Shown: in pieces, positions 124 through 48,139 of the stretch | Layout of the letters: every line of letters begins with the position of its first letter | Numbering within the stretch: position 1 is the stretch's first letter | DNA from: Trypanosoma brucei | Taxonomy: Eukaryota | Length of the DNA stretch: 64,000 bases | NCBI GenBank assembly: GCA_000002445.1 | Contig: CP000066.1 | Span: 1,408,001 to 1,472,000 of the forward strand | Direction of reading: 5' to 3' | Notes under the pieces: model-generated | What the model saw: only the letters and a program-made list of their open reading frames with translations | What the model was told of the DNA's origin: nothing | Databases searched by the model: none | Made by a program: the position numbers and the translations under genes

Positions 124-3100
124 ATGGGAATACAAGGTGATTTGGCTCTTGCGGTAGAGGGAGCGCGTAATGGTACCGCTTCTTTTGACGACAGCCTTCG
201 GGCAACTACGGATGAGCGTGGCTCATGTAGTATTGAAGCAGATAGGCTGCTATTTGTAAATACAGCGCTCCGTGCTATTCCTGGTCGGACGCTCTGCACC
301 TTCTTCGCCCCTATCATGGGTGTCAAGCGCAATCTCCTCAATCGGAGACGACTCACGGAGCAACACATGTTATCTGACCCAGTGAAAGCGGAGAGGTTGT
401 ACAAGGACGCTATTCGTATTCTTACTAAGACTCTTGTAGACGCATCGGCAGAGGTATTTGACTCGGCGGCGCCGATCGACGAGAAGGAGCTGGCTGCCGC
501 CTTGAGGGGAAAATTGGTCCCGCAGTGTTACGAACCAGGAGCAGTTCTCGCGTATCCCGGGGAATTCCCCGAGGTTATGTTTGTGCATGTTGTGTTGAGT
601 GGAAGCGTGCAGGTTGTGCACTATCAGCTGCAGAGCCGGAGAATGGGCTTCTCTGAGGGTAGTAGAAGGCAATATTTTGTGTCTAATGAAGTACTGAGGT
701 TGAGTGGGGCCCTGGGACTTCAACCGGAACTTTTCAAATTGATCAACGCGGCACCGGAGCCGCTCAGTGACGGTGCGAGTGATATGGCTTCTCTTTCCAA
801 CGTTTCGACCACTGCTACCCGCACAATGCGGCGCGTCTCGCGTATGATGGGACAACCCACACTCCAAGCAATTCGAACGGAGTTGAACCGGGCCCCATAT
901 GTTCTTAGTGCACAGGAAGCACTTGGATTTGAGCCTTTTCGGCTCACCACAGTTACCGCTGAGGCAACGGGTCCATCTGGAAGGGGGGGCGAGTCGTCCC
1001 CGGATTCACGCATAATTCAGACAATGAGGATCCGTGCGAGGGACCTCCACAAAGCTCTTGTCCAGATGGCACTTTCTCATGCGGGAAAGCAGCGAACTGC
1101 CACATCACCAACGGCATCGAGTCGGCACACCTCTGCATTGATGGAATGCATTTCTGTGGCTCGAGTGAAATGTATATGCCGTCATTACCCACTTAACGAG
1201 ATTCTCATGCGTCAGAGCTGGTTGTTGCAGGACACTCCAGCCTACACAATAAGGGCTCTGGTGACGCAGCTAGCCCCTCGTTCGTACTTTCCAGGGGAGG
1301 TCATTCTTTGTCCCCACTCAACAAACAGACACCTGAGCTTCTTGCGGCGTGGCATAATGACTATTGAAGAGGTGCCGCCACCGGACCCTTCTAGGCCTAA
1401 TGCATGCCAATGCGGTTCTCTTTCTGGAGGGAATGTTCTGCAGGAGGTTCCTCAGGGTGCGTCGTTTGGCGAGTTGTCGGTGCTGTTCGGCGAACCTAGA
1501 CAGTTTGTGCTTCGTGCAAAGACACCGTGTGATGTTTGGTCCCTCTCACGACAGAGTTTTGCGGCAACTATCAGGCGTGATGATGCCCTCCGGGCAAGTC
1601 TGCTTTCGAAAGCCGCTGCCCTCCGTATGCGGTGGTTGGGAGAACAGCGGTACACTACGGTACTGGCGGACAAACTACGCGAATGTTGCGAACTCTTCCG
1701 CCACGCATCCGATAGTTTTATCCGTCTCATACAAGAGCGAGTGGAGCCTGTTGTGTATCCACCGGGGAGATTGCTAACGTCAACCTCTGCGCGCTGCATG
1801 GAGATGCTGATCATTACTCATGGTAAGGTTTCATCAATTGTTGATGGTGTGGCAGAATATGGCCCGGGGAGTGTCATTGGGGAACCAACTATAATCCTGC
1901 ACCGCTGGCCCCTTGGACTCGTCTCGAAGTCCATGGTGGAAGGATGGAAACTTACCCGACATCAGTTGCGGGATGCACTTGAGCGTGTGGAGGTGCTGCG
2001 TCAGCACTCTGGTGAGGTTGCAGGTCACGTCCAACAGCTCATGCAGAGTATATTTGCTCCCCCCGTCCCTCCATGCGGCGTGGATGCCGTTGGGCGGTCG
2101 CGGATGCCCTTGGTGGGACCACCTCCTTATGGGAACACATATTTCGAATACGCGGAATGGCTCGCAGAGGGTCAACTGAAGGCTCTTTGCTTTAAGCATC
2201 GCGAATACGTAAACTGGAAGGACATTTCTTACTCTACACTGTCTGGACAAGGTAAGAAGAAGCGGGGCAAAGTTTTTAAACTTTCAGAGACGTTTGACGT
2301 TCCTACGGTTGGTGATCACCGTAGCTCGCTTCCGGCATTAAGGCCCGTGACTAAACCACATGCACCGAAGCATAAGAGGAAGGAGCAGCCACGCAAAATT
2401 CGCTTTGCTTCCGCAGGGAGCACTTTTCCGTTTCACATTAATCCTGTTATTGGAAGGCAGCTTGTTGCACACCCGAATTCTGCAAAGCAACCTGTAGCCG
2501 TCCCCTTCGAAGCCGATCCATTCTTGGCGAAGCAGCGAGCCCTGACATCCGCCTTTGTGGAGAAAACTTTTAATGGTCCTCTGCCTCAGCTGCAGCAGAT
2601 GACAAATCTTCTAGAGAATCGTGACAAGTTGATGAAGGTGGAAGCGAAGCAGCACAAGCTAAATGACTCTAAGCAGGAGCGTATGAATGTAATTGACTTA
2701 ACTGAGTCAGGTGGACTCGCGCCCGTTCACATCTTTCTGCACGGGAGCAATCCCCGCGTGCACATTACAGTGGAAGAAGCGGTGGCCGTGGGGTACGTAC
2801 TACAGTTCCCGGACACCAAACGCATTCAATCGTGCGTCTCAAACATCGATTCGGACGTGACGCTTGGATTGCCGCAGCACCGGCAACGCCGGAGAGATAT
2901 GGCGTTTATTCCAAATGATCGACATCCTCGTTACTGTTTTCTCTTTGCCGCCTCTCAGCTCGGAGAGAGGAGTGCGGAAGAAGTTCTGCTTTACGAGGCC
3001 GCTGTACAGGAGGCGGAGAGCAAAGAACGAGCGCAGCATCTCACTGCACTTTTGGTGGCGCAGCTGCCAGAGAAGCACCGACCGTCAGCGGAGCAACATG

Positions 3101-4365
3101 CTGTAATTCCCGACGCAGAAAATACCGCAACGGGGGAGTGGAGGGGGGTTTCGATGCCTGTCACCTCTCTGAATCCTACCGTACCGGGAAATGCGGTCTC
3201 ATCGCGCCGAAGGTCTTCCTCGCCTCAAGTGAAAGATGCAACTGGTGAAACATTCCTACAGCATCTCCGCGACAGCCCCGAGCAGGCAATGAGTAAGATG
3301 CGCATGAAGTTTCAAGTTTCCGCTAATGCCGTTGAAGAAGTTGATGGAAGCAAAATTATTGCCACTCGGGCGAGCGGTGATGTCACGCCCCTGGCCGTTA
3401 GTGGCGCTGAGGGTTCCGACCAAAAGTTTGACCTGCTCGACCGTCTGCGCAGTGCGACAGCGCCAGTAGAGGGCATCAACGAGGGCGGTGCCGGCGAACT
3501 CCCTCCGCGAAGACCCAATGCGGATCCTGATGAGAAATCAGATAGTGGAACACACAGTGAAGGTGAACACACTATGGAGAAGTTCTTTAAGAAGGAAGAA
3601 ACCCCAGTCTTTGTTGACGGTTATGGGGAGCTCAGTACGGTACAAAGCAAATCCACTGTCGAGGTTGCAGCTACTCAACCCACAGTTCCTCCAACCGCGC
3701 GCGGGGAACCGAGTGAGAATTGGTTCACGGATTCACCACCAATACCTGGCGCCAGCAACACTACATGCGCATGGATGCCGCAGAACTTCACCATGCCTAC
3801 TGTTAGTGAGGCAACGGCGACTATGCGTCTGATCCAAAGTGATGTGGACGGCCTCAATGCCGTTGCGCAGGAGCAAAGGCGCGAGCGCTTGCAGCGGCGC
3901 AATATTCCCGGTGCTGGTGTCTTCGATCCTACCGCTTCTAATGTGACATCTCTTGAGTCACAGCGGTTGGTGGACGAGTGGGTTGCTGAATATCGTGGGC
4001 ACTCACGTGACCCTATGTGTCCTGCCCAGATTCCGCCACTACTGCTCGCAGAGGCTGGCACTGATTATCTTGCTGAAGAGTTCCGTCACACTCGGCGCCA
4101 ACATGTGGTTGCTGTGAAGGAAGCGCAGGGTGTTGAAATATGGCGTGGTGAGGTGGATGCACGTGCGCGTCGGGAAGGGAAGAATCGCCAGGATTCCAAT
4201 TCCCCCGGCGGCGGCAAAAGTGTTTTGGCAGTTATAGGAGGTACTAAACTTGGGTTTCCCGCGAAGCCGCTACGCAATCCAACAGCAAATATGAGCGCGG
4301 AGGAGTACGAGCGGTGGGTCAGTGAGCGCGACGCACTGTTTGCTTCAGCTGATGGTCGCCAATAA
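124..4365 (+). CDS. Large hypothetical protein with tandem cyclic-nucleotide-binding-like (cNMP/CAP-family) domains
   Basis: ATG-initiated 1413-codon ORF, by far the longest in the window. The segments 'FGELSVLFGEPRQFVLRAKTPCDVWSLSRQSF' and 'GSVIGEPTIILHRWPLGLVSKSMVEGWKLTRHQL' match the G-E-L / PR-A-A hallmark of cNMP-binding beta barrels, each preceded by a Y-x-PGE element. The C-terminal ~700 aa are low complexity with no recognisable domain. Confidence 0.7.
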   Translation: MGIQGDLALAVEGARNGTASFDDSLRATTDERGSCSIEADRLLFVNTALRAIPGRTLCTFFAPIMGVKRNLLNRRRLTEQHMLSDPVKAERLYKDAIRILTKTLVDASAEVFDSAAPIDEKELAAALRGKLVPQCYEPGAVLAYPGEFPEVMFVHVVLSGSVQVVHYQLQSRRMGFSEGSRRQYFVSNEVLRLSGALGLQPELFKLINAAPEPLSDGASDMASLSNVSTTATRTMRRVSRMMGQPTLQAIRTELNRAPYVLSAQEALGFEPFRLTTVTAEATGPSGRGGESSPDSRIIQTMRIRARDLHKALVQMALSHAGKQRTATSPTASSRHTSALMECISVARVKCICRHYPLNEILMRQSWLLQDTPAYTIRALVTQLAPRSYFPGEVILCPHSTNRHLSFLRRGIMTIEEVPPPDPSRPNACQCGSLSGGNVLQEVPQGASFGELSVLFGEPRQFVLRAKTPCDVWSLSRQSFAATIRRDDALRASLLSKAAALRMRWLGEQRYTTVLADKLRECCELFRHASDSFIRLIQERVEPVVYPPGRLLTSTSARCMEMLIITHGKVSSIVDGVAEYGPGSVIGEPTIILHRWPLGLVSKSMVEGWKLTRHQLRDALERVEVLRQHSGEVAGHVQQLMQSIFAPPVPPCGVDAVGRSRMPLVGPPPYGNTYFEYAEWLAEGQLKALCFKHREYVNWKDISYSTLSGQGKKKRGKVFKLSETFDVPTVGDHRSSLPALRPVTKPHAPKHKRKEQPRKIRFASAGSTFPFHINPVIGRQLVAHPNSAKQPVAVPFEADPFLAKQRALTSAFVEKTFNGPLPQLQQMTNLLENRDKLMKVEAKQHKLNDSKQERMNVIDLTESGGLAPVHIFLHGSNPRVHITVEEAVAVGYVLQFPDTKRIQSCVSNIDSDVTLGLPQHRQRRRDMAFIPNDRHPRYCFLFAASQLGERSAEEVLLYEAAVQEAESKERAQHLTALLVAQLPEKHRPSAEQHAVIPDAENTATGEWRGVSMPVTSLNPTVPGNAVSSRRRSSSPQVKDATGETFLQHLRDSPEQAMSKMRMKFQVSANAVEEVDGSKIIATRASGDVTPLAVSGAEGSDQKFDLLDRLRSATAPVEGINEGGAGELPPRRPNADPDEKSDSGTHSEGEHTMEKFFKKEETPVFVDGYGELSTVQSKSTVEVAATQPTVPPTARGEPSENWFTDSPPIPGASNTTCAWMPQNFTMPTVSEATATMRLIQSDVDGLNAVAQEQRRERLQRRNIPGAGVFDPTASNVTSLESQRLVDEWVAEYRGHSRDPMCPAQIPPLLLAEAGTDYLAEEFRHTRRQHVVAVKEAQGVEIWRGEVDARARREGKNRQDSNSPGGGKSVLAVIGGTKLGFPAKPLRNPTANMSAEEYERWVSERDALFASADGRQ

Positions 4366-4852
4366 ACGTGCGGGGAGAGGGGCTTCGAGAACGGGGAAGT
4401 GTACGGCTAAATAAATATGTATCATCGGTTGTTTTTTCCCTTTTCTCCTTTTGTTCCCGTGAGTTTGTTTTTATTTTAGTTTTATGTTAGAAGGGTTCAC
4501 GATCAGTGGGGTTTCCGTGTTTCATTTCTTCTTTTCTCCGCGAAGAGTTAGATTAGAATTATCCCTTTATTTTTTTTTCGACCGCCCCCTTTTTCTTGTT
4601 CCTCTGCTACGTGCTTTTCTATTTCATTGTAGGAACGACGTCTGGCGGTAAGCCGAGTATGTATATGTTTCTGTTGGGGAGGCGGGGTTCAACATGAAGC
4701 AAAGAGACCCGCACTTCGATGTACTGCCAATAACCGCAACAGCGCACACAACCAAAGCACGTATTCACTGCCCTATTTATTGACTAATGTTTGCTGACTT
4801 CCTTCCTTCTATTGTTCGCGGCATGCCTTCGTTTATCATTTTGAACAATCGA

Positions 4853-4930
4853 AAAGTTATTTTTACCGTTTTTCTTCCCTTCACTTTTTTGTTCGTTCAT
4901 TCATCCAATCATTTGTATTACTTACTAAGC
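4853..4930 (+). promoter_or_regulatory. Polypyrimidine tract + AG: probable spliced-leader trans-splice acceptor region for Ku70
   Basis: 'tttttaccgtttttcttcccttcacttttttgttcgttcattcatcc' is followed by AG dinucleotides 30-60 nt upstream of ATG 4962. This follows the general kinetoplastid rule for polyY-directed trans-splicing. Confidence 0.4.
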
Positions 4931-4961
4931 TTGTGAAGGAGGGGTGCGCCGGGTTGGACCC

Positions 4962-7199
4962 ATGGCGCACTATGATGAGTGGCTCATGTCAGTTGACGGG
5001 CTCGATTTCCACGACGAGGATGACAGCTATTTTAATGAAACTTATGCAACGGAGGATGAGCCTTCTCTCCGGACGGGTAGTGTCTCTTCTCTAGACCAGT
5101 TCGATGTGGTGCTGTGCCTCGTCGACTTTCAACAACGCATGTTCCAAGGTGTTGTTGCGCATGATTGCAAGAACCCATTTGCCGGTGGAGCAGAACAGGT
5201 ATACGACGATATCGCCGAGGTGAAAGTGAAAGAAACCCCCACAGTGTTCGAAAAGGCAATCTGCTGCGTTCAGCAACTGTACAAGGACAAGGGGATATCT
5301 GACAGCAACGATATGGTTGCGTTGGTGCTGTACAATACAAGGGAATGCACACATCCTGATTACCCTGGTGTATACGTCTTTCATACTTTTTGCTCAGCGG
5401 AAATACAATCTGTACTGGATTTGGAGGAACTTGTAGCTGCGGGGAGGGTACCGTCAGCGGGATATGAAAATATTGTGACGAAGATTGGCCATTCAACTGA
5501 AGCCAAGTCTCATCTCGGGGATGCGCTGCGGGCAGCCCGGCATTTGTTTTCCCAGCTGCCTTCCGAGGTCAAACATCGTCGAATTTTTCTCTTCACAAAC
5601 GACGTGAACCCACATCGCGGTGACGAGGAGCTTTTGCAGAAATGTGCTATCCAAATCGAGAGCTTGTCCTCTGGGGGAGTGGGCTTGGTGTGCTATGATA
5701 TGAGCCCCACTGCCCTTCCGTCACCGGCGGCTTCAACGCAATCGGGAGAAGCGGCTGCAATGAGTGAGCGTTGGGCAACACAGTTCGGCGGTGTGGACGA
5801 GTTTTGGAGTGCTCTTACGGGTGCGGTACCGAAGGCAACAAACAGTTCACGGGTTGGCACTATTGATATTGTTCACCTGAATAGCGACGATAGCGTTATG
5901 CTCGGAGCGCTCTCAACGGCAGTCCGCTGGCGCACACACCCACGGGGAGCCTCTCAAACGACAACACTAACTATTGGTGTAGGCGCAAAGGGCTCGGCAC
6001 TACCAAGACTGACAGTGGGTATGTATTTCCCGATGACAAATGCGCAGCGCCGATTATCGAAGTGGTTGGATGGACGCGCAGGTGAAATGGTAATGCTTCG
6101 GCAGCGTGCGGTGGGAGTGGGGGCCCCTATTTTGCTGCCTTGCCACGCGGGGAAGAGTGGTGCGCCACCTGCACATATCAGTACGGGGCAGTTGGGCAAG
6201 TCACGTCCAAGCACGGGACCGGGGACGTGCCCAAACGTTCCTCTAAGTTGTAAAAAGCATATCGCCGAGGTCGTTGGGGCGGGATTAACTCTCGGCTTTT
6301 CCATCATATGCTTCAAAAACGCTGATGACGTTCTGCACCCTCAGTACGTCCTGGGGAAGTCGTGCGTCCTCCACCCAGATCCGCAAGACGGTAGCGATGG
6401 CTCGCTTCGACTTTTCATTCGGTTGGCTCGAGCGCTGAAGGAGCAGCGGAAGGTTGCGATGGCGCAGCACATTACGCGCTACGCCACTCCTCCTCGTCTT
6501 GTCGCACTTGTGCCGCCCGGGCTCAACGGTGATCATATGGACACGGCTAGTTTCCCTGTGATGCACGGTCTTGGTTTGTACGTCGTGCCTCTCTCGTATG
6601 CTGACGACGTTCGTACCACCCCTCGATCCCCTCTCTTCGGCGATGCAACGAAACCTATGGAACGTGATATTGCTCTTGCACAGCGACTGCTGGCCACGCT
6701 GCCGTCTAAGTACAATGTGAACGTAGTTCCCAACCCTGCTTTGGAGCTACGCTATAAAGCTATTGAGAGTATTGTGCAACAGACACAGCAGCAGAGTGGG
6801 TTGTCAAAGGAAATTCCAGGGGTAGCTCCGTTCTCGCAACTGTCAAAGGCAGTTGATCGGACGTGGGGTGATCGTGGGGCTATGGCAAAATACGGCTCTG
6901 TGTTTGATGAGTTTAAGGCGGTATTGCTCCCTTCGTACAACCGAGACGAAACGTGTGGTCCTAAGACGAAAGCGGCGCGGAATGTGAAGGCGCGAGCAGA
7001 GTTGGCTGACGAGGACATCAAAGGTGTTGAAAGAATAATATCTGCCGTCGAGTCGGCGTTTCGGTTCCAGTCTATGGGGATGCTGACTGAACCGCAGTTG
7101 AAGGAGTATTTGCGCGTGATGGAGGGCGGTGCCTTTGGAGTCCGGAGAAATCCGGATATCATTCAAGCTGTGATATCTCAATTGCAAGGCGACATTTAG
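4962..7199 (+). CDS. KU70: Ku70 (ATP-dependent DNA helicase II 70 kDa subunit homologue)
   Basis: The track ORF starts at GTG 4944; the first ATG is 4962 (MAHYDEW...). 'RIFLFTNDVNPHRGDEEL' aligns with human Ku70 'RIMLFTNEDNPHGNDSAK', and 'PPRLVALVPPGLNGDHMDTASFPVMHGLGLYVVPLSYADDVR' aligns with 'PPYFVALVPQEE...PPGFQLVFLPFADDKR'. The C-terminal 'LTEPQLKEYLRVMEGGAFGVRRNPDIIQAVISQL' is SAP-like. An upstream polypyrimidine tract (4853-4899) and AG are present. Confidence 0.85.
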   Translation: MAHYDEWLMSVDGLDFHDEDDSYFNETYATEDEPSLRTGSVSSLDQFDVVLCLVDFQQRMFQGVVAHDCKNPFAGGAEQVYDDIAEVKVKETPTVFEKAICCVQQLYKDKGISDSNDMVALVLYNTRECTHPDYPGVYVFHTFCSAEIQSVLDLEELVAAGRVPSAGYENIVTKIGHSTEAKSHLGDALRAARHLFSQLPSEVKHRRIFLFTNDVNPHRGDEELLQKCAIQIESLSSGGVGLVCYDMSPTALPSPAASTQSGEAAAMSERWATQFGGVDEFWSALTGAVPKATNSSRVGTIDIVHLNSDDSVMLGALSTAVRWRTHPRGASQTTTLTIGVGAKGSALPRLTVGMYFPMTNAQRRLSKWLDGRAGEMVMLRQRAVGVGAPILLPCHAGKSGAPPAHISTGQLGKSRPSTGPGTCPNVPLSCKKHIAEVVGAGLTLGFSIICFKNADDVLHPQYVLGKSCVLHPDPQDGSDGSLRLFIRLARALKEQRKVAMAQHITRYATPPRLVALVPPGLNGDHMDTASFPVMHGLGLYVVPLSYADDVRTTPRSPLFGDATKPMERDIALAQRLLATLPSKYNVNVVPNPALELRYKAIESIVQQTQQQSGLSKEIPGVAPFSQLSKAVDRTWGDRGAMAKYGSVFDEFKAVLLPSYNRDETCGPKTKAARNVKARAELADEDIKGVERIISAVESAFRFQSMGMLTEPQLKEYLRVMEGGAFGVRRNPDIIQAVISQLQGDI

Positions 7200-16369: not shown

Positions 16370-17965
16370 ATGCCTGTAGTGTCGACTGTCGCCGGCGCAT
16401 CACTGGAGACGGAGTGGAAGAAATGTATGAAACGTGACGAAACCAGTTATAACATTTCTTATTCCCACGACAGCAAGCAGAAGTGGGTTCATACGGATAT
16501 AGTGGCAAATATCCCATCATCAATGTGTGGCGGCGTTAACACGAACAATCATGGACCAACGAAACCTTCTTCTCGGACTTCAGTAGAGGAGAAACACGTG
16601 TCGAAGGAGGAACCCTCTTCTGCTGTACGACGTGCACCGTTTCGGTCACTAAACGGGAGGGCTTACGCTGTTCCCTTAAGCATGCTGAAGGAATTCGACG
16701 CCATCTATCAGCACGTGCAGAAGGCTCAGCATCCACCCAGGCGAGACGACCCCCTCTTTTCACCTTTAAGCTCTCCCGGTGTGCTTTGGCGCCACGACCC
16801 CTACAGCGCAAAGGTACTCAATACAACTTTTTCGTCTTCCGGGAGTCACCTTTCTTCCACTGAAGAGGATGAGGAATGTGGAACATCAAAAAGGGTTGTA
16901 GAAGGCATCGTTACACGGTCGATTGGTGTCGTAAACGCGGCGCAGATGCAGCGGCTACCGATACGCCCACCACCAATTCCCAGTTGGATGCCGCAGAACC
17001 TTCGGACATCGAACTCTGCAGTTTTGACAATGCCAGTTGAGATAACCCCCCGCACTATTCAACCCTCAACACGTCCAGTGCCACCTCCCAGCGGTTGTTG
17101 TTTTGTTGTTCACTCCATAACTCCCACACGGCAGCCTCCTGCGCGTTCTGAATGCCAAAGCGCATTAGGAGTGGCAGAAATGGAGGACTCGCTGAATGCT
17201 TGCGGCGATTTTGTTCCGCAATTATGCCGAAAGCGTCCGTTAAGGCGCCTGAGCGAGGACTGTAAGAGGGACGAGTTCCCCATGTTGCTGCCGTCTTTTC
17301 GCGCTCTGCCTCCGCTCTTTCAAGACCTCACGGTCCACATGAGTCGGCGCCCTCCTCCACTGAGCAAACGGCCAAGGAATGTTTCGGATGAGAACCAATC
17401 GCGACCTGAAGGGGTACGTTATGTATATCTTGTTGATCACCGTTGCAGGCGCAGTGTTTGCGCGGCTGGCGTCCTCTATAAATTAAGCGAGATGGTTGTC
17501 CTTGAGGGTGACATGGGAATTGACATGGGAACTGTGCACGCCGTCCTCCCTGTAGAGGAATTTGACCAGTTGCATGGTGACGAATTGATAAGTCGGGGCT
17601 TTCCTGCGGCTGAGTGGCATGTGATGGCATCTGCTCTCATTTTGCGTTCAGCCACTACAGCGGAGATACATCATTACGACGGGGCGCTTTACAGCTTCTC
17701 AAAGGATCTCCTATCATTCTTGCGTAATCGCCTTGTCCCCGCGAGATTTTCGGATTGCCGCGTGGAGAACATGGAATTCCTTGGTTGTGAATTCCAGGCG
17801 GACTGCAAAAAAGTGTATGTTTACTACAGGGCGAGGCGACGCGTATTGTTCCGCGAGTTAGCACAATACCTTCATTCTTTTTACCGGTGCCGTATTTGGC
17901 TTCATGAGGTGGGCCGCGACAGTCCCAACAGCTCAGGTGCCACAACTCCTGATTTAAGTAATTGA
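16370..17965 (+). CDS. Hypothetical protein
   Basis: The track ORF starts at GTG 16349; the first ATG is 16370 (MPVVSTVAGAS...). It is a 531-codon + strand ORF with no recognisable domain. Confidence 0.55.
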   Translation: MPVVSTVAGASLETEWKKCMKRDETSYNISYSHDSKQKWVHTDIVANIPSSMCGGVNTNNHGPTKPSSRTSVEEKHVSKEEPSSAVRRAPFRSLNGRAYAVPLSMLKEFDAIYQHVQKAQHPPRRDDPLFSPLSSPGVLWRHDPYSAKVLNTTFSSSGSHLSSTEEDEECGTSKRVVEGIVTRSIGVVNAAQMQRLPIRPPPIPSWMPQNLRTSNSAVLTMPVEITPRTIQPSTRPVPPPSGCCFVVHSITPTRQPPARSECQSALGVAEMEDSLNACGDFVPQLCRKRPLRRLSEDCKRDEFPMLLPSFRALPPLFQDLTVHMSRRPPPLSKRPRNVSDENQSRPEGVRYVYLVDHRCRRSVCAAGVLYKLSEMVVLEGDMGIDMGTVHAVLPVEEFDQLHGDELISRGFPAAEWHVMASALILRSATTAEIHHYDGALYSFSKDLLSFLRNRLVPARFSDCRVENMEFLGCEFQADCKKVYVYYRARRRVLFRELAQYLHSFYRCRIWLHEVGRDSPNSSGATTPDLSN

Positions 17966-18581
17966 GCATCTCTGACGCTCATTTCTCCCTTTTGAATTGT
18001 GGAGCGAGGGAGATGGTTGCGGCGATGTGCAAACGGTGAATGCACAAGAGAGAAAAAAGCGAAAAAATAATAATAATTCTAAAGTGTCTGTAGACATGAC
18101 TAAGGAGAGAAAACCTCTCCCTCTACATTTCACCTTATTGTATTCCATTTTATTTCTTTACTTAACAAAAAAAGAAAATAACTGTAAGTGACTTAACTAT
18201 ATTCCCTTCCCTTTAAACCTGTTTTCATCCCCTTTCATTCCCTTTCCTTATTTTTCTCGTTATTTTTAAAAAAAAAGCTGTGTGTGCTGCTGGGTGTGTT
18301 TTTATACATTAATTTATTTTCATGTTGCAATATTTCCTCCCTCTCATCTCTTTTCTGCATTCCACGGATTCACGTGCGTTGGGGTAATGAAAGAAGAAAA
18401 TCTCAATTTCTGATGGTGGAGTCAAATCCTCCACTTTTTTATGTTTTATGGTATGTTTTATGGTATGTTTTATTGTTTTTTTTAATTGTTTTATTATTTA
18501 TTATTTTTTTTCCCCCATTTCAAAATTCGTTCGACCCACATTTGTGTTGATGCTTCGTTTCATTGAACCCTTTTCTCCCTA

Positions 18582-18625
18582 CTCTCACTCTCACTCTCAC
18601 ACGCACACGCACACGCACATGCACG
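18582..18625. repeat. (CTCA)n / (CACG)n / (CA)n compound microsatellite
   Basis: 'ctctcactctcactctcacacgcacacgcacacgcacatgcacg'. Confidence 0.85.
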
Positions 18626-20792
18626 ATTATACGAAAATATGTGAAAGTTATATATTTATTTATGAATGTGCTTATTTTTTGGTTAATGCAACTTCTCAAC
18701 CCCCCTTTTCCCCGTTATTATTTCACATGTACCGTTTTTTAAGCGATGCGACGCACTTACACTCTCTGCATGATGAAACGGAGTTTCGCGACACCCCATT
18801 TTAAAATTTTTATTGTTTATCTTTTTTCTTTTTTTTGCTCCTATAAATGTAGTTTTTACACAATATCACATAATATAATTTAATATGACTTCACATTATT
18901 TAATACAATCTCATTATTTTTCTTTTTTTTTTTGTGTGTGTGTGTATGTGCGGTTAAACGACCCTCTATGAGGCAGTTGCTTGTTGTCAATATCGTTATT
19001 TGTATTTTAAAACGAAAACAATAAGGGAACTGCAAAGGAACAGACAAAAAGGAAAAAAATAAAATAAACAACAAGAGGACACTCACAGAATAAACCGAAT
19101 AAAATCCAGCATTCAATAATAAAACAATGACAACATCAACAGAAAACAGAACACAGAAGGAAACACGAACAGAAAATAGGAGGAAAACAGAACCCGTTGA
19201 CAAAAAATAAAAACAGAAGAAAAAAAACACAGAGAGAAAAAGAATTAGTCAATATACCTCAGTATAAAATGAAATATTAACGGAAAGAATATGTTATGAT
19301 TTTGCCCGTTTGTTCTTTCTTCGATGCCGTTGCAATAATGGTAAAAATGATAATAATAATAATTAAAAAAAACGTTTTCCCCTCCGATATTTTTATTTTA
19401 TATCCTTCCTCTTTTTTTTTTTTGCTTTGCATTTTGGTTTGCACATAACTTTGTGCAGTTCACGTTCACACGATGGCGCTGCTGCTCACAGGCACTCAAC
19501 GCATCCACTTCAAGAAGTGAGAAGATAAAAAAAGAAAATAAAAATGAAGCTATCAAATCTGCTCCACCCATACAATCCACGACTATTCTTACATACTTAC
19601 ATTTTTTTCTTTTAAATAAATAAATAAATATATATATATATATTCTTTTCTTGTTGTTGTTTTTGTTCACATAAATATCAAATAACAAATAATAAATACA
19701 TTCGTTTTACTATTTATCCAATCACTTCCGATTTTCACAAATGACTTTGTTTCGCTTCGATACCCTTCAAAACACCGCTGCGTGGGACGGATTCAAAAGA
19801 ATAACTTGCAGACGACTAGCGGCAATGGGAGGAGGAAAAAAAAAAGACAAAAAGAACTGACGCACACGAGTTAGAAGTTGATAACTGTTGTGAGAAGGAA
19901 GAAGAAGAAGCAAAGGGGCGGAAAAAAAAAAGGAGACAAACAGAGCAACAACAACAACAACAGCTAATTTTCTCATTATTATTATTATTGCTATTATCAC
20001 TATTGTTATTTTTGTTTTGCCGGTCACTAGAAGAATATACACCCGTATTGAAATAAATAAAATAAGTAAATTTTAATTTGTTTTGTAACTATTATTTCCC
20101 ATATTTTAAGCGACCAAATATTTACATCAAGGCAGAACACTTTGGATGATATGATCTCCAAAAGAAGGAAGATAATGCAATTGTATATGTATATGCATAT
20201 GTATGAGTGTGTGGGTTTTATAAAAGAAAGCACGTGACACAATTAATGGCAGAAAAGAGGGAGAAAATGCATAAAACGAAAGTCGCTCCAATGAACAATA
20301 ATGAAATATAGGACACAAAATATTAAAGATGGGGGATCAAATCGAAGGGCAGAGGGGCGGGGAGGGAGGGCGGAGGAAAGAAAAAAAAAAGATAATAGCC
20401 TGATAAAAAGAAAATACGAATATATATATATATATATAACTATTTATATTTTATATGTTTTTTTTTCTTTTTATAACGTTATCGCGTGATGACATGAATT
20501 ATTGGGAGGGTGTGGGTTTTTATCGTTTCCTTATTTTCTTTTAATTTCAGAAAAAAGAAGTTGTTTTTGTTTTTTTATTTTTTAATTTTACTTTTTAAAT
20601 TATCAGGTATGTTCTCATTACCTCTCCTGCGATGTGACTACACGCCTTTATGTTTCACTGAATCCAAATTCTTTCGTGTCTTTACTTCCATTTTTTTTTC
20701 TCTTATCCCCCCATATATTTACTTTAATTTTTATTATTTATCGGAACATGACTTAAGCGATTACCTGACTTGGATATCAGTCAACTAAGCAC

Positions 20793-20814
20793 GCACACAC
20801 ACACACACACACAT
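20793..20814. repeat. (AC)11 microsatellite
   Basis: 'gcacacacacacacacacacaca'. Confidence 0.9.
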
Positions 20815-21043
20815 AATCAAGTGAATTAGAAAGAAGAACAAAAAAAATCAAAGAAAGCAAATTTAAGGATACGATAAGGGCAGATCAAAGTGAAGAAGAA
20901 AAAAAACAACAATAACAACAACAATAATAATAATAACAGCAAAAAAATAAAAATAAAAAGGAAAGAGTATAAATTATTCACTCAAATTGCCCACTGTTTT
21001 TTTTTAATTTTGCTTACTTGTTACTACTTGAACGCAATCACAT

Positions 21044-21640
21044 ATGCCCTCCGCTGAAACACTACTGAAGGATTTGTTCGGTTCTCATACCGTTGAGTTG
21101 CTTCGGCAGGATGGCAAAATGGTACCCGCAACAACTGCTCTTGAAGGTAAGAAATATTTGCTTGTATATTTCTCCGCCTCATGGTGCCCTCCGTGTCGTG
21201 TTTTCACACCACAACTCGCCACATTTCATGAGCTTTTCAGCGCAAAACACAATTTTGATGTGATATTTGTTTCACGAGACAAGGATGAGTCCTCCATGTC
21301 TGCTTATTTCTACAATCCAAAGTACAGCAGTTTATCCGTAAGTGGTGGCGAATGTTCTCATGGGGACTGGCTTGCATTGCCCTTCACACAAGCGCAGACT
21401 GTAGGAAAGGAAATAATGAGCCGATATGGTTTAAACACGATTCCTAATATTCTTTTGTTTGACCTCAGCACGGAGGAGTTGGTGACAAGTGAGGCACGTC
21501 AATTGATTGGATCCAACTGCCGGTCGGCTGAAGGTTTCCCGTGGCGTGGCGCCTCGGCTCCGGTAATTTCGTTTCAAGGATTGGCAACTGTATTTGTTGT
21601 GTTTTTGATGTTGTATCAATTTTGGCAGTCGTGGAGTTGA
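21044..21640 (+). CDS. TXN2: Tryparedoxin (thioredoxin-fold, WCPPC active site) with C-terminal hydrophobic tail anchor
   Basis: ATG start. 'KYLLVYFSASWCPPCRVFTPQL' contains the tryparedoxin-specific WCPPCR motif. 'WLALPF', 'IPNILLFD' and 'FPWRG' align with classical tryparedoxin 'WLAVPF', 'IPTLIGVD' and 'FPWKD'. The last ~25 residues 'APVISFQGLATVFVVFLMLYQFWQSWS' form a predicted transmembrane segment, as in the tail-anchored tryparedoxin II known from trypanosomes. The gene symbol is assigned by analogy only. Confidence 0.85.
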   Translation: MPSAETLLKDLFGSHTVELLRQDGKMVPATTALEGKKYLLVYFSASWCPPCRVFTPQLATFHELFSAKHNFDVIFVSRDKDESSMSAYFYNPKYSSLSVSGGECSHGDWLALPFTQAQTVGKEIMSRYGLNTIPNILLFDLSTEELVTSEARQLIGSNCRSAEGFPWRGASAPVISFQGLATVFVVFLMLYQFWQSWS

Positions 21641-22497
21641 GTGAACTGCCTAATTGGGGTAATAAACTGATTTTATTTCCTCTTGCCCATATTTGTGTGG
21701 TATCCCTTTAGTAGTTATGCGCGTGGGAAATCAGCATGAATGGTTGAAAGGGAATTGTGTGGGGATTTTTTTTTGGGGGGAGGGGGAGATGACCAGTGAT
21801 TACGCTGGAAGTATTTTTTTAAAATTTTCTTTTCTGCTATTTCGTGTGTGTGTGTGGGCGGGCACATTGTTATTTGTGTTTGATATAAGTCAAAGGAATA
21901 ATGAATGAATGAATGGGATGCGTGAGAGCTAATTGTGTATTGTGGTGTGTTCTACTCTGTTTTATTTTTGTCTTCGTATCTTCATCCATCGTATTTGCCA
22001 TTGGGTCTGTTCTCCTTCCCATCATTACTCGTACTGTCTTTGAAGACTTGCGCCCCTTATCTTGAACTTTAAATCTTTTTTCTTTGTTGCTGTCATCACC
22101 TTGCGTGCGATGTTCGTGCAGGAAGCGCCGTGAAAAGCAACAACAACAACACCAGTAAACTTCAGCGAGAGGGAGGCAGGGATATGTGCATGAGCGATGT
22201 GTGAGTGTGAAAAAGTGTAGGGCGGGTTGCAGTCACAACATTGTTGTTTAAATCTCCTTTCAGTATATGTCTTACTTCTTCTTTTCCAACTCTGCTGAAG
22301 CTCCTTTTGTTTGTTGCTTTTGCATTTGAATTTCATTCGTAACCCCTTCTTTTTTGCGTCATTATTGCTCATCCTTTCTTTCCTTCTTTTTACCATAACT
22401 TGGGTAAAAGAGGTTGCAGAGTTGTTCTCCCTTCCTTGCTCCTCTTTCGAACACCTGTCGAGAATAAGGGAAAGGGAAAAAAAAGAGAAAGAGTGTG

Positions 22498-22598
22498 TGC
22501 CTACCTCTCTTTCTTTCTTTCTTATTTTTTTTTTTTTGCGTGGGCAACTCATTTCGTTGGGTTGGAACTACTCACACGCTTTCTCAATAAACACACAG
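22498..22598 (+). promoter_or_regulatory. Polypyrimidine tract / trans-splice acceptor region upstream of XPB paralogue
   Basis: 'cctacctctctttctttctttcttattttttttttttgcg...cacag' ends 10 nt before ATG 22609. Confidence 0.4.
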
Positions 22599-22608
22599 TC
22601 ATTGGGTG

Positions 22609-35547: not shown

Positions 35548-37057
35548 GAAATGGATGCTGCCAACACTCTGCTGTGCGTACCCGCGGTGCTGATGTTGCT
35601 TAGTATTGTTTACAGTTCTTCTTTTGGCTGAGGAGCAGCTCCGTGTGGAGTAACGATGCCTCTGTGTGGGTGCGTTTGTGTATGTATGTGTGGGAGGTGA
35701 AATATGAGAGAAGGAATTGGAATTGACAACCAAGAGCAAAGGAAGGAAAAAGGGAATATACATAAATAAATAAATATATATATATATATATACAGTGAAA
35801 TTTTACCACAGTGAGCTTGTGAGGGAGGAGAGGGAGGAGGACGTGAGACGGAATGGAACGGAGGGATTCAAAAAAAAAAACGAAGAGATATTTGGGGGGG
35901 GGTGGGGGAGAGGAGGGGTTTACAAAACAGAAACAGTTACAATATTTTGGTTGGGTTGGAGTTGCTGTTGTGTTTTTCTAGAGGATGAGGGGATGGAGCG
36001 GGTTGCCAGTGGTGAAATGTGCGCTTGGGGAGTGCGCAGAAGACAATGACAGCGCGGCGAGTGAAAATCGACGTGAAGAGTTGCGAAGGCAAGTACGAGT
36101 TAGAACGAGTCGAAGATATTTCTTTGTTGGGGTAAGTTTATTACCGCTTTTACAATTAGTAAGGCTTCAATATGTATGTGCCCTTTCTCTTTTATCTCAT
36201 TTACTTCCAGATCCCCCATGTGGTAACACTAGTTTTTTTTTCCACGTGAGCGTGGTGTTGAAGTGGTGATGTTATTTCGTTTGAAATGTCGACTTAAGGA
36301 GAGGAAGGGAGGGAAGGGGGGGGGGGAAAAAATAAGGAAAGAAAAAGGAAAAACAATTGCAGTTGTGTAGGCCGGAGCGCACCTGGATTCCGCCTATCAA
36401 TTTATTTCACCGTTTATCTGAGTGTCATATATGGTTAAGTGATCATGCTATACGACCTATATTTGAATGAGTATAAATAAGTATAAATATATATTTATAT
36501 ATTTATATATTTTTGTGTTTTTTTGTTTTTTTGTTTTTTTGTCAAATCAACTAGTTTGGCGAAGGAGCCCAGTTTTTATGTGCATGAGTTATGTACATGT
36601 GTGTGAGCTTGGTGCCAGAGAAGACAAACTTCAGCACCTTCCTATGTTTTTTGAAAGAAAAAAAATTCTTCTTATTCTGCTGTTTTGTTTTACTGCGCTT
36701 GCCACTCATATATTTATATTTATATACGCACATTTTTTTTTGTTTCCTTCTCACTCGTGACGGTTAGTGTTTTTTCATCCAAATACGGGTACGTGTGTGT
36801 TTGTGTTTGTGTATATTTGCACGGGAGGAAGGAGGGAAAAGAGGTAAGTGCAACACTGATGATTGTGTGAAGTTTCTTCTTCATGTCAAAGTATATTTGC
36901 GCTTCTTTCTCTTTTTTTTTTTTATGTTCCCCCTTATTCTCCTTTTTGTTCTTTTTGTTCTTTTATTTCCCCCTCTTTCTTTTGATTCTTATTTTTCCCT
37001 TCTTTCTTCACTCGTTTCGAAAAAAAAAACTGAGAAAATCCAACGGTTGGTGGTGAT

Positions 37058-37118
37058 GGTTGTTGTTGTTGTTGTTGTTGTTTTTATTGTTGGTGTTGTT
37101 GTTGTTTTTATTGTTGGT
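37058..37118. repeat. (GTT)n run containing a perfect 24-bp tandem duplication
   Basis: 'ttgttgttgtttttattgttggtg' occurs twice back to back (37071-37094 and 37095-37118). Confidence 0.85.
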
Positions 37119-37888
37119 GATATCTGTGATGCCGTAAGAAGTTTGCTTTTTCATTACCGTTGTTTTTACTGTACCCCTTTCCCTCATGAAAGGAGAGAAA
37201 GGATCTATTTCCTTGTGTGTTAATTCGTTACTTTTTTTCTCCCATTTTTTTTTTCCCATCGTCTTTTCTCAATTTCCTCGACCCCTCCTTTCTTTTGTTT
37301 TACCCTCCGTTTGTGTGTGTTTTTATTCTTGATTTTTTCTTGCTCCCCGTTTGCTTGTTACCGGCTTCAGCCGCATGCGCAATACTTTTTTTTTCTTTTA
37401 GTTGTATTGATGAGGAAATGAAGTGGATGAATGGTTCAGAAAGGAAAATAACAGAGCAGCCGTATTCGGTCGCAGTGTTTCGTACTGGCCATTGAAGATA
37501 TCCTTTCATTGAATTTCTGCTTTCTGTCCGGCCTGTTGCTTTTACACACCACCCGTAGATTGCTGTTGCTCGCTAATCCTCTTGTAAATATCATTTGCTT
37601 CGCGTTATCTCTTCTCTTCTTTTTTTTTTCTCCCCCTCTTAATTACCTTCGTTACACTTATTTGTTCTGAAAAATATACGACTCTATGTGTACAATACAG
37701 TTGTGTTCCCGTAACGTGATTCAGGGAGTGAAGGAAGTGAAGTATAGATATCACCCCCTCCCCAATTTCTTCCCTAAAGGAAGCATACAGCAACAACAAC
37801 AACATCCAAAAAGAGAGGCGTGTAAAGAAGCTGTGGGTATTATTAAGAGGAAAGGCGACGCCGTGCAAAGCGAAACTACGCCATACTT

Positions 37889-48116: not shown

Positions 48117-48139
48117 CATATATATATATATATATATAT
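48117..48139. repeat. (TA)11 microsatellite
   Basis: 'catatatatatatatatatatat'. Confidence 0.85.

What the first reader, a model, noticed from the sequence alone, without database searches (positions are those of the whole stretch)
124..4365. 1413-aa protein with tandem cNMP-binding-like domains and no attached catalytic domain
At least two, possibly three, consecutive cyclic-nucleotide-binding-fold signatures lie in the N-terminal half. Residues around nt 1230-1590 and 1730-2000 carry 'FGELSVLFGEPRQ...AKT...VWSLSRQSF' and 'IGEPTIIL...'. A weaker one lies at nt ~540-720. The long low-complexity C-terminus has no kinase, cyclase, PDE or channel domain. Trypanosome PKA is known not to respond to cAMP, and cAMP-response proteins containing cNMP-like domains have been described. 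A giant multi-cNMP-domain protein is therefore a candidate non-canonical cyclic-nucleotide (or other ligand) sensor or scaffold.
Basis: partly seen in the sequence, partly recalled or inferred. Interest (0 to 1): 0.6.

Follow-up and report, generated by a model that had tools for sequence, protein, structure and literature searches.

The report
FLAM6, a known trypanosome flagellar protein

Summary
The 1413-aa ORF at 124..4365 (+) is real. It is identical to T. b. brucei TREU927 XP_844092.1 and lies directly upstream of Ku70 (Tb927.3.5030). It is therefore Tb927.3.5020, FLAM6 (Flagellar Member 6). Pfam cNMP_binding scores 63.4 bits against a cutoff of 27.5. An AlphaFold model and Foldseek show three tandem CNB folds (aa ~120-325, 356-507, 512-627) and no catalytic domain. 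Only copy 2 has a canonical phosphate-binding cassette (FGELSVLFGEPR), with Gly/Glu/Arg invariant in 24 aligned orthologs. Copy 3 has Trp or Pro where the Arg should be. Copy 1 is split by a 75-aa insert and has a shortened cassette. The C-terminal half is not low-complexity. It is mostly disordered, with conserved helices and motifs, and has relatives only within this family (16 of 1.84 billion representatives). Published work already places FLAM6 on the proximal axoneme. There it depends on the docking complex and outer dynein arm, recruits pDAP1 and restrains beat frequency. That work already proposes cAMP binding, which remains untested. Verdict: observation confirmed, interpretation partly supported, gene already known. 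The modest addition is "three folds, one ligand-competent".

The parts
124..4365 (+). FLAM6 (Tb927.3.5020) coding sequence, 1413 aa plus TAA stop
   Evidence: ORF. 0 differences from TREU927 XP_844092.1. Ku70 lies downstream. Tb927.3.5020 is listed as FLAM6.
226..456 (+). N-terminal helical region (aa 35-111), conserved, three long helices preceding CNB-1
   Evidence: AF2 model helices 35-51, 55-81 and 86-111. Conservation 0.33-0.46 identity. No Pfam match.
481..1098 (+). CNB-like fold 1 (aa 120-325), cryptic and degenerate
   Evidence: AF2 beta-strands at 132-169 and 247-304 plus helix 305-325. Pfam partial hit 11.9 bits at aa 135-173. hhalign to CNB-3 59%. No PDB sequence hit.
634..858 (+). 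Insert inside CNB-1 barrel (aa 171-245). Mostly disordered, but it contains the conserved segment SNVxTAIQRSLRR[AV]SRxxGQPTL, with RRVS at aa 236-239.
   Evidence: pLDDT below 50 over 171-228 and 234-245. Conservation. RRx[ST] in 16/24 orthologs.
910..951 (+). CNB-1 PBC-like segment AQEALGFEPFRLTT: Glu kept, cassette about 3 residues short, no conserved Arg in register
   Evidence: E265, G268 and P271 invariant. The Arg-position column is Y/L/C. The neighbouring basic residue is K/R/H/P/G.
1189..1644 (+). CNB domain 2 (aa 356-507), the canonical copy
   Evidence: Pfam 39.2 bits, E = 7e-10, full-length model match 2-89/89. phmmer to T. gondii PKA-R and SthK places R459 on the PBC Arg. AF2 barrel plus PBC helix 450-455 plus B/C helices.
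1309..1413 (+). Invariant C396-P-H398 and the C428-x-C430 pair flanking a variable-length loop insert in CNB-2 (possible metal or redox site)
   Evidence: Invariant columns. Alignment. Also present in P0036, P0039 and P0040. Function is inferred only.
1465..1506 (+). CNB-2 phosphate-binding cassette FGELSVLFGEPRQF
   Evidence: G449, E450, L451, L454, E457 and R459 are 24/24, and P458 is 22/24. Deviations from the PKA consensus: S452, V453 and a bulky F/C/Y at position 14. Arg is replaced by His in Phytomonas only.
1657..2004 (+). CNB fold 3 (aa 512-627), non-canonical
   Evidence: Pfam 27.4 bits, E = 3e-6. hhalign to CNB-2 89%, E = 2e-6, 115 columns. AF2 barrel without a predicted PBC helix.
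1876..1917 (+). CNB-3 PBC-like segment IGEPTIILHRWPLG: invariant H593-R594-W595-P596, no Arg at the canonical position
   Evidence: The HMMER register versus SthK puts P596 on the Arg. The hhalign register versus CNB-2 puts W595 there. E587 is lost in 4/24 orthologs and in P0039/P0040.
2029..2223 (+). Conserved extension after CNB-3 (aa 636-700) with helix 673-691
   Evidence: Identity 0.51-0.57. pLDDT 77-88. Invariant M661, P662, P668, E682, L685, C689, V696 and W698.
2719..2958 (+). Most conserved C-terminal block (aa 866-945: PVHIFL...EAxAVGYV.Q.PD...IQ..VS..D.DV..G.P..R.RR..M...PN.R....FLFAA)
   Evidence: More than 25 invariant columns. Identity 0.55-0.61. Not confidently folded alone, pLDDT 32-53. 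No Pfam or PDB match.
3802..3903 (+). Conserved C-terminal helix (aa 1227-1260: ...MRRIQRDVxGLNAVAxEQRRER...)
   Evidence: pLDDT 78-91. Identity 0.61. Invariant Q, G, L, N, A, E, Q and E columns.
3952..4173 (+). C-terminal helices (aa 1277-1350) with invariant W, Y, P, P, L, A, G, D, Y and W
4246..4359 (+). C-terminal tail motif (aa 1375-1412: LG.P..PL.NP....S..EY..W...R...F), terminal helix
   Evidence: pLDDT 71-92. Invariant G, P, L, P, Y, W, R and F columns.

Best explanation
The ORF encodes FLAM6 (Flagellar Member 6, Tb927.3.5020) of Trypanosoma brucei brucei TREU927.

Anatomy (shown here). An N-terminal helical region is followed by three tandem cyclic-nucleotide-binding (CNB) folds. After them comes a ~700-aa family-specific region that is largely disordered and carries conserved helices and linear motifs. 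Only the middle CNB (aa 356-507) retains a canonical phosphate-binding cassette with the Gly-Glu and Pro-Arg pairs. CNB-1 (split by an insert) and CNB-3 (invariant HRWP, no Arg in register) are degenerate.

Context (from the literature on the L. mexicana, T. cruzi and T. brucei proteins). FLAM6 sits only on the proximal part of the axoneme. Its localisation needs the proximal docking complex (pDC1, pDC4) and the outer-dynein-arm heavy chain. It recruits a second CNB protein, pDAP1. Its deletion removes density at the outer dynein arms and raises tip-to-base beat frequency.

Mechanism (inferred). The conserved C-terminal motifs and helices, and probably the degenerate CNB folds, act as docking and scaffold surfaces on the docking-complex/outer-arm assembly. 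The CNB array acts as a restraint on proximal outer-arm activity. CNB-2 is a single regulatory ligand site, most likely for cAMP. Its occupancy would move the B/C helix lid and alter that restraint, linking flagellar cAMP to beat frequency without PKA.
For: Identity.
- 0 differences from XP_844092.1.
- Ku70 (Tb927.3.5030) lies immediately downstream.
- Tb927.3.5020 is listed as FLAM6 in two independent papers.
- The Leishmania ortholog is annotated 'Flagellar Member 6'.

Three CNB folds.
- Pfam 63.4 bits and per-copy scores.
- AF2 model with pLDDT 72.8 showing three barrels.
- Foldseek E = 3e-19 to four-CNB PKG over ~560 columns, then tandem-CNB PKA-R and PKG.
- hhalign CNB-2 versus CNB-3 89%.

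One competent site.
- CNB-2 PBC G449, E450 and R459 are 24/24 and align to the PBC Arg of cAMP-bound T. gondii PKA-R.
- CNB-3 has P596 or W595 at the Arg position.
- The CNB-1 cassette is shortened and has no conserved Arg.

C-terminus as family-specific docking region.
- Conserved islands and 436/723 residues with pLDDT below 50 alongside confident isolated helices.
- Only 16 relatives among 1.84 billion representatives, all E <= 1e-30.
- No Pfam or PDB match.

Axonemal role. PMC11971395 reports proximal localisation that depends on pDC1, pDC4 and ODA-alpha, pDAP1 dependence on FLAM6, loss of ODA density and increased beat frequency. The T. cruzi ortholog is proximal-flagellar and its knockout grows slowly.
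Against: - No experiment shows cyclic-nucleotide binding by FLAM6 in any species. The papers found only predict it.
- The CNB-2 PBC deviates from the PKA consensus at three positions: Ala to Ser, Leu to Val, and a bulky F/C/Y where Ala follows the Arg. The effect on the pocket is unknown.
- Phytomonas has His instead of the PBC Arg, so the Arg is dispensable in at least one lineage.
- The knockout phenotypes (lost ODA density, lost pDAP1) could be purely structural.
- The authors of PMC11971395 argue that FLAM6 is unlikely to act by sequestering cAMP.
- The docking role of the C-terminal motifs is inferred from conservation and disorder only. No partner was modelled.
Confidence: 0.6

Rival explanations
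1. Ligand-blind scaffold. All three CNB folds are structural or protein-interaction modules, as in the CNB-homology domains of KCNH channels. FLAM6 is simply an adaptor that stabilises proximal outer dynein arms and holds pDAP1. The CNB-2 cassette is conserved for folding or partner binding, not for a nucleotide.
For: - Two of three copies are clearly degenerate.
- CNB-2 deviates from the PKA consensus at three PBC positions.
- Phytomonas lost the Arg.
- Knockout phenotypes are structural: ODA density and pDAP1 localisation.
- No binding data exist.
Against: - Gly-Glu and Arg are invariant in 24/24 aligned orthologs, and two further divergent members keep the Arg.
- These are precisely the ligand-contact residues. 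They have been lost in the sister copies of the same protein and in trypanosome PKA-R, which shows that they decay when not needed.
Confidence: 0.27
2. Sensor of a different small ligand. CNB-2, or the HRWP-bearing CNB-3, would bind cGMP, a nucleoside (as in trypanosome PKA-R) or another metabolite rather than cAMP.
For: - Trypanosome PKA-R is cAMP-independent and is solved with guanosine or inosine bound (PDB titles).
- The residues after the CNB-2 Arg are unusual (H/Q/N then C/F/Y).
- CNB-3 carries an invariant H-R-W-P of unknown purpose.
Against: - The nucleoside-binding PKA-R sites lack the phosphate-binding Arg; one solved entry is a T318R-containing mutant (title of 6h4g). FLAM6 CNB-2 keeps it, which argues for a phosphate-bearing ligand.
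- From general knowledge, kinetoplastids have abundant adenylate cyclases and cAMP PDEs in the flagellum but no established cGMP pathway.
Confidence: 0.1
3. PKA-related module. FLAM6 would act like a PKA regulatory subunit or anchoring substrate, using the conserved RR[AV]S motif upstream of the CNB-2/3 tandem as a pseudo-substrate or phosphorylation site for a flagellar PKA catalytic subunit.
For: - RRx[ST] lies in a conserved segment in 16/24 orthologs.
- The tandem CNB-2/3 matches PKA-R structures.
- PKA RI-alpha is itself an axoneme-bound component in bovine sperm (9fqr).
Against: - The motif lies inside the CNB-1 barrel insert, about 115 residues before CNB-2, and not in a linker next to CNB-A.
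- It is absent in a whole clade (RLAL, RMGL, RQAM).
- No RIIa dimerisation/docking domain is detected.
- No interaction data exist.
Confidence: 0.03

Closest known systems
FLAM6 / Flagellar Member 6 (Tb927.3.5020; LmxM.08_29.1040; TcYC6_0109380)
   Same: It is this gene. The protein sequence is identical to the TREU927 entry, the position next to Ku70 is syntenic, and the orthologs are named FLAM6.
   Different: Nothing differs in identity. The literature describes 'two' CNB domains or 'a' cAMP-binding domain. This analysis finds three CNB folds, with only the middle one canonical.
CARP1 (T. brucei cAMP response protein 1), an experimentally validated kinetoplastid cAMP-binding protein
   Same: Both are kinetoplastid-specific flagellar or axonemal proteins with three predicted CNB domains and no catalytic domain. 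In both, one PBC matches the consensus and the other two deviate at the critical Arg (PMC10354285).
   Different: - It is a different gene, and FLAM6 is not among the CARPs discussed in PMC10354285.
- In CARP1 the canonical copy is the first; in FLAM6 it is the second.
- CARP1 binds cAMP (half-maximal competition at ~32 nM in a pull-down); FLAM6 binding is untested.
- FLAM6 has a long ODA/DC-dependent C-terminal region.
- No direct sequence comparison was run here.
PKA regulatory subunits (tandem CNB-A/CNB-B), including the cAMP-independent trypanosome PKA-R
   Same: The CNB-2/CNB-3 tandem is structurally closest to the CNB-A/B tandems of PKA-R and PKG (Foldseek E = 1e-14 to 1e-11). The CNB-2 PBC aligns residue for residue with T. 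gondii PKA-R.
   Different: - No dimerisation/docking domain is detected, and there is no inhibitor sequence adjacent to CNB-A.
- There is an extra degenerate CNB and a 700-aa C-terminal region.
- Unlike trypanosome PKA-R, FLAM6 CNB-2 keeps the phosphate-binding Arg.
Plasmodium PKG (four tandem CNB domains plus kinase)
   Same: It is the best Foldseek match (E = 3e-19, ~560 aligned columns). It has a multi-CNB array that includes a degenerate copy (the degenerate copy is from general knowledge).
   Different: FLAM6 has no kinase domain. Identity is only 12-13% and TM-scores are low (0.17), so the relative orientation of the domains differs.
pDAP1 (LmxM.31.2530), a second proximal axonemal CNB-domain protein
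   Same: It shares the same proximal, docking-complex-dependent localisation and the same knockout phenotype of higher beat frequency. It also has a predicted CNB domain.
   Different: It is a separate protein whose localisation depends on FLAM6. It is not in this window and was not analysed here.

Membership tests
FLAM6 orthogroup (Tb927.3.5020) | Protein sequence equals the product of Tb927.3.5020 | tested here: met
   0/1413 differences from TREU927 XP_844092.1/AAZ10533.1. Tb927.3.5020 is listed as FLAM6.
FLAM6 orthogroup (Tb927.3.5020) | Chromosomal position immediately upstream of Ku70 (Tb927.3.5030), same strand | tested here: met
   The next ORF, 4944..7199 (+), has the Ku_N and Ku domains. 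Tb927.3.5030 is Ku70.
FLAM6 orthogroup (Tb927.3.5020) | Full-length orthology to Leishmania and T. cruzi FLAM6 | tested here: met
   L. donovani 'Flagellar Member 6' (LmjF.29.1040 group) scores 633 bits. T. cruzi scores 1570 bits with 98% coverage. The C-terminal profile recovers only this family.
FLAM6 orthogroup (Tb927.3.5020) | Proximal-axoneme localisation dependent on the docking complex and outer dynein arm | not testable with these tools
   Literature only: PMC11971395 and bioRxiv 10.1101/2023.07.09.548290.
Cyclic nucleotide-binding domain (Pfam PF00027 / CNB fold) | HMM score above the curated threshold | tested here: met
   Whole protein 63.4 bits versus 27.5. CNB-2 alone 39.2. CNB-3 alone 27.4, at the threshold. 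CNB-1 alone 11.9, below it.
Cyclic nucleotide-binding domain (Pfam PF00027 / CNB fold) | Eight-stranded beta-barrel with flanking helices, structurally similar to solved CNB domains | tested here: met
   The AF2 model shows three barrels. Foldseek gives probability 1.00 to PKG and PKA-R tandem CNBs. CNB-1 is supported mainly by the model.
Cyclic nucleotide-binding domain (Pfam PF00027 / CNB fold) | PBC with conserved Gly-Glu and Pro-Arg (ligand phosphate and ribose contacts), CNB-2 | tested here: met
   F448-G-E450-L-S-V-L-F-G-E-P-R459. G, E and R are 24/24. R459 aligns to the PBC Arg of 5j3u and SthK.
Cyclic nucleotide-binding domain (Pfam PF00027 / CNB fold) | PBC with conserved Gly-Glu and Pro-Arg, CNB-1 and CNB-3 | tested here: not met
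   CNB-3: the Arg position is P596 or W595, and Glu is lost in 4/24. CNB-1: the cassette is ~3 residues short and the Arg-register column is Y/L/C.
Cyclic nucleotide-binding domain (Pfam PF00027 / CNB fold) | Actual binding of cAMP or cGMP | not testable with these tools
   No published binding assay for FLAM6 was found.
PKA regulatory subunit | N-terminal RIIa dimerisation/docking domain and an inhibitor site next to CNB-A, with exactly two CNBs | tested here: not met
   The only Pfam family is cNMP_binding. There are three CNB folds plus a 700-aa tail. The RRVS motif lies inside the CNB-1 insert and is not universally conserved.
cGMP-dependent protein kinase (PKG-like multi-CNB) | C-terminal Ser/Thr kinase domain | tested here: not met
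   No Pkinase hit at E <= 10, and none in the orthologs.
CARP1-type kinetoplastid cAMP-binding proteins | Identified by resistance to a PDE inhibitor, with demonstrated cAMP-agarose binding | not tested
   FLAM6 is not named among the CARPs in PMC10354285. The resemblance is architectural only. The CARP1 sequence was not compared here.

The most novel reading that the evidence does not exclude
FLAM6 CNB-2 is a genuine cAMP receptor mounted directly on the proximal outer dynein arm and docking complex. cAMP occupancy would relieve or impose a brake on dynein activity. That would make FLAM6, with its client pDAP1, a PKA-independent effector connecting flagellar cAMP (receptor cyclases and PDEB) to beat frequency, and hence to social motility and tissue navigation. 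The invariant Cys/His cluster in CNB-2 and the RRxS motif in the CNB-1 insert could add redox, metal or phosphorylation inputs.
Probability: 0.3. Interest if true: 0.7.

Novelty: already known. Interest (0 to 1): 0.25.

Why it matters
Trypanosome PKA does not respond to cAMP, yet flagellar cAMP controls parasite social motility and passage through the tsetse fly, so the downstream effectors are an open question. FLAM6 is one of a few CNB-domain axonemal proteins that could be such an effector, and others already recognise it as a candidate.

This analysis adds a sharper, testable hypothesis. Of three CNB folds, only the middle one (E450/R459) is worth mutating. The other two, together with the conserved C-terminal motifs, are more likely docking surfaces. 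It does not reveal a new gene or a new kind of system.

Tried and rejected
- Chance or artefact ORF: rejected. There are conserved full-length orthologs across trypanosomatids and a named gene.
- Hidden catalytic or other domain in the C-terminal half: none found by Pfam or NCBIfam on the protein and 8 orthologs, by a PDB profile search (best E = 0.08, a chance protein A helix), or by a whole-library HMM search (family members only).
- The weak NCBIfam hit to the 'family 2B encapsulin shell protein' (27.9 bits against a cutoff of 400) falls on aa 508-629, the CNB-3 region. I treat it as the same CNB signal, not as an encapsulin relationship.
It was redone with a C-terminal-only alignment.
- The AFDB Foldseek library was not available, so triple-CNB architectures outside kinetoplastids were not surveyed structurally.
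- CNB-1 alone against PDB sequences gave no hits. Its assignment rests on the AF2 model, a partial Pfam hit and hhalign.
- Subota 2014 (PMC4083114) and Jager 2014 (PMC8486353) are not held in the library. Their content is cited only as relayed by later papers.
- tRNA, Rfam and tandem-repeat scans of the window found nothing relevant.
- Model coordinates are not exposed. Pocket geometry and Cys/His distances therefore could not be measured.

Full report
**1. Observation**

The ORF exists as described: 124..4365 on the + strand, 1413 aa, ATG start, TAA stop. Pfam finds a single family, cNMP_binding (PF00027), at 63.4 bits against a curated cutoff of 27.5 (E = 2e-17), in three stretches.

Scanning sub-segments separately gives:
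- aa ~386-486: 39.2 bits, E = 7e-10, covering the full model.
- aa ~543-621: 27.4 bits, E = 3e-6.
- aa 135-173: 11.9 bits, E = 0.22, a partial match that is not significant alone.
- aa 651-1413: nothing.

The quoted motifs sit at nt 1465-1506 (FGELSVLFGEPRQF) and nt 1876-1917 (IGEPTIILHRWPLG).

**2. Identity**

- The protein has 0 differences from T. brucei brucei TREU927 XP_844092.1/AAZ10533.1. It has 5 differences from the T. b. gambiense DAL972 copy.
- The next ORF downstream (4944..7199, +) carries the Ku_N and Ku domains. Ku70 is Tb927.3.5030 (PMC8311970).
- Tb927.3.5020 is listed as 'Flagellar Member 6' in PMC9896412. It is listed as 'FLAM6 ... Proximal ... PF00027 ... LmxM.08_29.1040' in supplementary file 3 of PMC11971395.
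- The Leishmania ortholog cluster is annotated 'Flagellar Member 6 / LmjF.29.1040'.

The ORF is therefore FLAM6. All ORFs of at least 250 aa in the window lie on the + strand, apart from one overlapping minus-strand ORF. This fits a trypanosomatid polycistronic unit.

**3. Anatomy of the N-terminal half**

An AlphaFold2 model of aa 1-720 was built with 24 orthologs (mean pLDDT 72.8). It shows:
- helices at 35-111;
- a beta-barrel at ~132-304, interrupted by a low-confidence insert (171-245) and followed by helix 305-325;
- a second barrel at ~384-475 with a short PBC helix (450-455) and B/C helices (476-507);
- a third barrel at ~541-611 with helix 612-627;
- a conserved extension to ~aa 700.

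Foldseek against the PDB gives Plasmodium PKG (four tandem CNBs) as the best match, at E = 3e-19 over ~560 aligned columns. Tandem-CNB PKA-R and PKG structures follow at E = 1e-14 to 1e-11.

Profile-profile comparison of the ortholog sub-alignments gives:
- CNB-2 versus CNB-3: 89% probability, E = 2e-6, 115 columns.
- CNB-1 versus CNB-3: 59% over the first 42 columns only.
- CNB-1 versus CNB-2: weak.

CNB-1 has no phmmer hit in the PDB. So there are three CNB folds, not the 'two CBDs' stated in the literature. The first is cryptic and rests mainly on the predicted structure.

**4.

I scored 24 orthologs (Trypanosoma, Leishmania, Leptomonas, Porcisia and unnamed assemblies) against the PKA consensus F-G-E-[LIV]-A-L-[LIMV]-x3-[PV]-R-[ANQV]-A, quoted in PMC10354285.

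- **CNB-2** reads F448-G-E-L-S-V-L-F-G-E-P-R459-Q-F. G449, E450, L451, L454 and R459 are 24/24, and P458 is 22/24. The deviations are Ala to Ser, Leu to Val, and a bulky C/F/Y where Ala follows the Arg. phmmer aligns R459 to the PBC Arg of cAMP-bound T. gondii PKA-R and of SthK.
- **CNB-3** reads I-G586-E587-P-T-I-I-L-H593-R594-W595-P596-L-G. HMMER against SthK places P596 on the Arg, and hhalign against CNB-2 places W595 there. Either way there is no Arg in register. E587 is A or G in 4/24 orthologs, and the model predicts no PBC helix. H-R-W-P is invariant, which suggests a conserved but different role.
- **CNB-1** keeps E265, G268 and P271. Its cassette is ~3 residues short, and the Arg-register column is Y/L/C.

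Among more divergent members found later, two ~2775-aa proteins keep EPR or DPR in CNB-2. Phytomonas sp. Hart1 has EP-His instead.

So the refutation condition ('Arg/Glu replaced in all copies') is not met. Exactly one copy looks ligand-competent. This is the same pattern reported for CARP1, where one of three PBCs matches the consensus and cAMP binding was shown experimentally.

**5. The C-terminal half**

It is not compositionally low-complexity. Conservation across orthologs shows islands at aa ~871-960, 1231-1260, 1291-1320 and 1381-1410, with many invariant residues.

The AF2 model of aa 691-1413 has mean pLDDT 51.6, with 436 of 723 residues below 50. It has confident isolated helices at ~821-854, 951-980, 1038-1062, 1227-1260, 1277-1294, 1315-1350 and 1392-1412. 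The best-conserved block, 866-945, is not confidently folded on its own.

A C-terminal profile (aa 800-1413 plus six orthologs) was searched against 1.84 billion representatives. It finds only 16 proteins, all at E <= 1e-30, and nothing between 1e-30 and 1e-3. Against PDB sequences it finds only chance hits. Pfam finds nothing there in this protein or its orthologs.

Conserved motifs in a disordered, lineage-specific region are what one expects of segments that fold onto partners. I infer a docking role, but this was not tested.

**6. What is already known (literature)**

As relayed by later papers, Subota et al. [quoted passage not shown]

Chiurillo et al. (bioRxiv 10.1101/2023.07.09.548290) tagged TcFLAM6, which localises to the proximal third of the flagellum. 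Its knockout grows slowly. The authors suggest FLAM6 'could bind cAMP'.

PMC11971395 (Nat Commun 2025) reports, in L. mexicana:
- FLAM6 has a proximal, docking-complex-like localisation.
- The signal is lost on deletion of pDC1, pDC4 or ODA-alpha.
- pDAP1, another CNB protein, depends on FLAM6.
- Deletion of FLAM6 reduces electron density within the outer dynein arms.
- Deletion strongly increases tip-to-base beat frequency but has little effect on swimming speed.
- The authors note the predicted cAMP-binding domain and argue against a simple cAMP-sink model.

I found no paper reporting a binding assay.

**7. Most likely mechanism**

*Shown here:* identity; three CNB folds; one canonical PBC; a family-specific, conserved and disordered C-terminal region.

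*Shown in the literature:* proximal localisation dependent on the docking complex and outer dynein arm; recruitment of pDAP1; a restraining effect on beat frequency.

*Inferred:* the C-terminal motifs and the degenerate CNBs dock FLAM6 on the docking-complex/outer-arm assembly. CNB-2 is a single regulatory site, most likely for cAMP, because the phosphate-contacting Arg and the ribose-contacting Glu are retained. Trypanosome PKA-R has lost that Arg; its PDB titles describe it as 'cAMP-independent', and one solved entry is a T318R-containing mutant. Ligand-driven movement of the B/C helices would then change how FLAM6 restrains proximal outer arms.

*Rivals:* a ligand-blind scaffold (0.27), a different ligand (0.10), and a PKA-R-like or anchoring role via the RRxS motif (0.03).

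**8. Comparison and novelty**

This is a member of the FLAM6 orthogroup and carries CNB-superfamily domains. It is not a PKA-R: no dimerisation/docking domain is detected, the inhibitor-like motif is misplaced, and there is an extra CNB and a long tail. It is not a PKG, because there is no kinase domain. It resembles CARP1 in architecture and logic but is a different gene.

The gene, its CNB domains, its location and the cAMP-effector hypothesis are all published, so the novelty class is 'already known'. The increments here are the third cryptic CNB fold, the copy-by-copy PBC verdict across the family, the family-restricted C-terminal motifs, and two unexplored conserved features (a Cys/His cluster and an RRxS motif).

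**9. Verdict**

Interest is low to moderate (0.25), because the finding rediscovers a named protein. The open and testable question is whether CNB-2 really binds cAMP and thereby tunes outer-arm dynein. That question would be of real interest if answered positively (probability ~0.3, interest ~0.7).

Noticed in passing
window 1309-1317 and 1405-1413 (aa C396-P-H398; C428-x-C430): Inside CNB-2 there is an invariant Cys-Pro-His at the beta2-beta3 turn. A C-x-C pair is also retained within a loop insert of very variable length. C428 becomes His in T. cruzi, and the pair is also present in Phytomonas and the 2775-aa members. This Cys/His/Cys/Cys set could be a metal or redox site, which is not a usual CNB feature.
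   Followed up: partly
window 790-864 (aa 223-247), RRVS at nt 829-840: The otherwise disordered insert in CNB-1 contains a conserved segment, SNVxTAIQRSLRR[AV]SRxxGQPTL. It has a PKA-consensus or RII-inhibitor-like R-R-x-S in 16/24 orthologs, and the Ser is kept in 20/24. One divergent clade has lost it.
   Followed up: partly
P0036 (Phytomonas sp. Hart1, CCW67395.1) aa ~310-325: The otherwise invariant PBC Arg of CNB-2 is His in Phytomonas (FGELSLLFGEPH). This is the only family member seen without it.
   Followed up: partly
window 4944-7199 (+): Ku70 (Tb927.3.5030) lies immediately downstream. The mechanical ORF call starts at GTG 4944, but an in-frame ATG at 4962 (MAHYDEW...) is the more plausible start.
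   Followed up: partly
window 4366-4943: The FLAM6-Ku70 intergenic region has several long polypyrimidine tracts (for example ~4430-4470 and 4520-4620). These are typical of trypanosomatid trans-splicing and polyadenylation signals.
   Followed up: no
window 18000-22000, 36000-38000, 46000-56000, 58000-60000: These low-GC stretches (0.32-0.43, against ~0.50 elsewhere) lie between or around + strand ORFs. The gap from 17965 to 22606 has no ORF of at least 250 aa. No tRNA or Rfam family was found anywhere in the window.
   Followed up: no
PMC11971395 supplementary files 1, 3 and 4: The paper gives two different L. mexicana IDs for FLAM6. The ortholog table has LmxM.08_29.1040 (1898 aa, matching P0019). 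The summary and primer tables have LmxM.08_29.1700. This may be a typo, or the deleted gene may carry a different ID. It is worth checking before relying on the knockout phenotypes.
   Followed up: no
P0034 (L. donovani TPP50799.1, 3359 aa): One member of the Leishmania FLAM6 90% cluster is 3359 aa, against 1898 aa for the others. This is probably a fused gene model in that assembly.
   Followed up: no
P0039 / P0040 (unnamed Logan assemblies, ~2775 aa): These are very long FLAM6 family members from unidentified organisms. They have a canonical CNB-2 PBC, lack the CNB-3 Glu (GASCLVGHRWP) and have a ~130-aa Gly/Arg/Ser-rich insert in the CNB-2 loop.
   Followed up: partly
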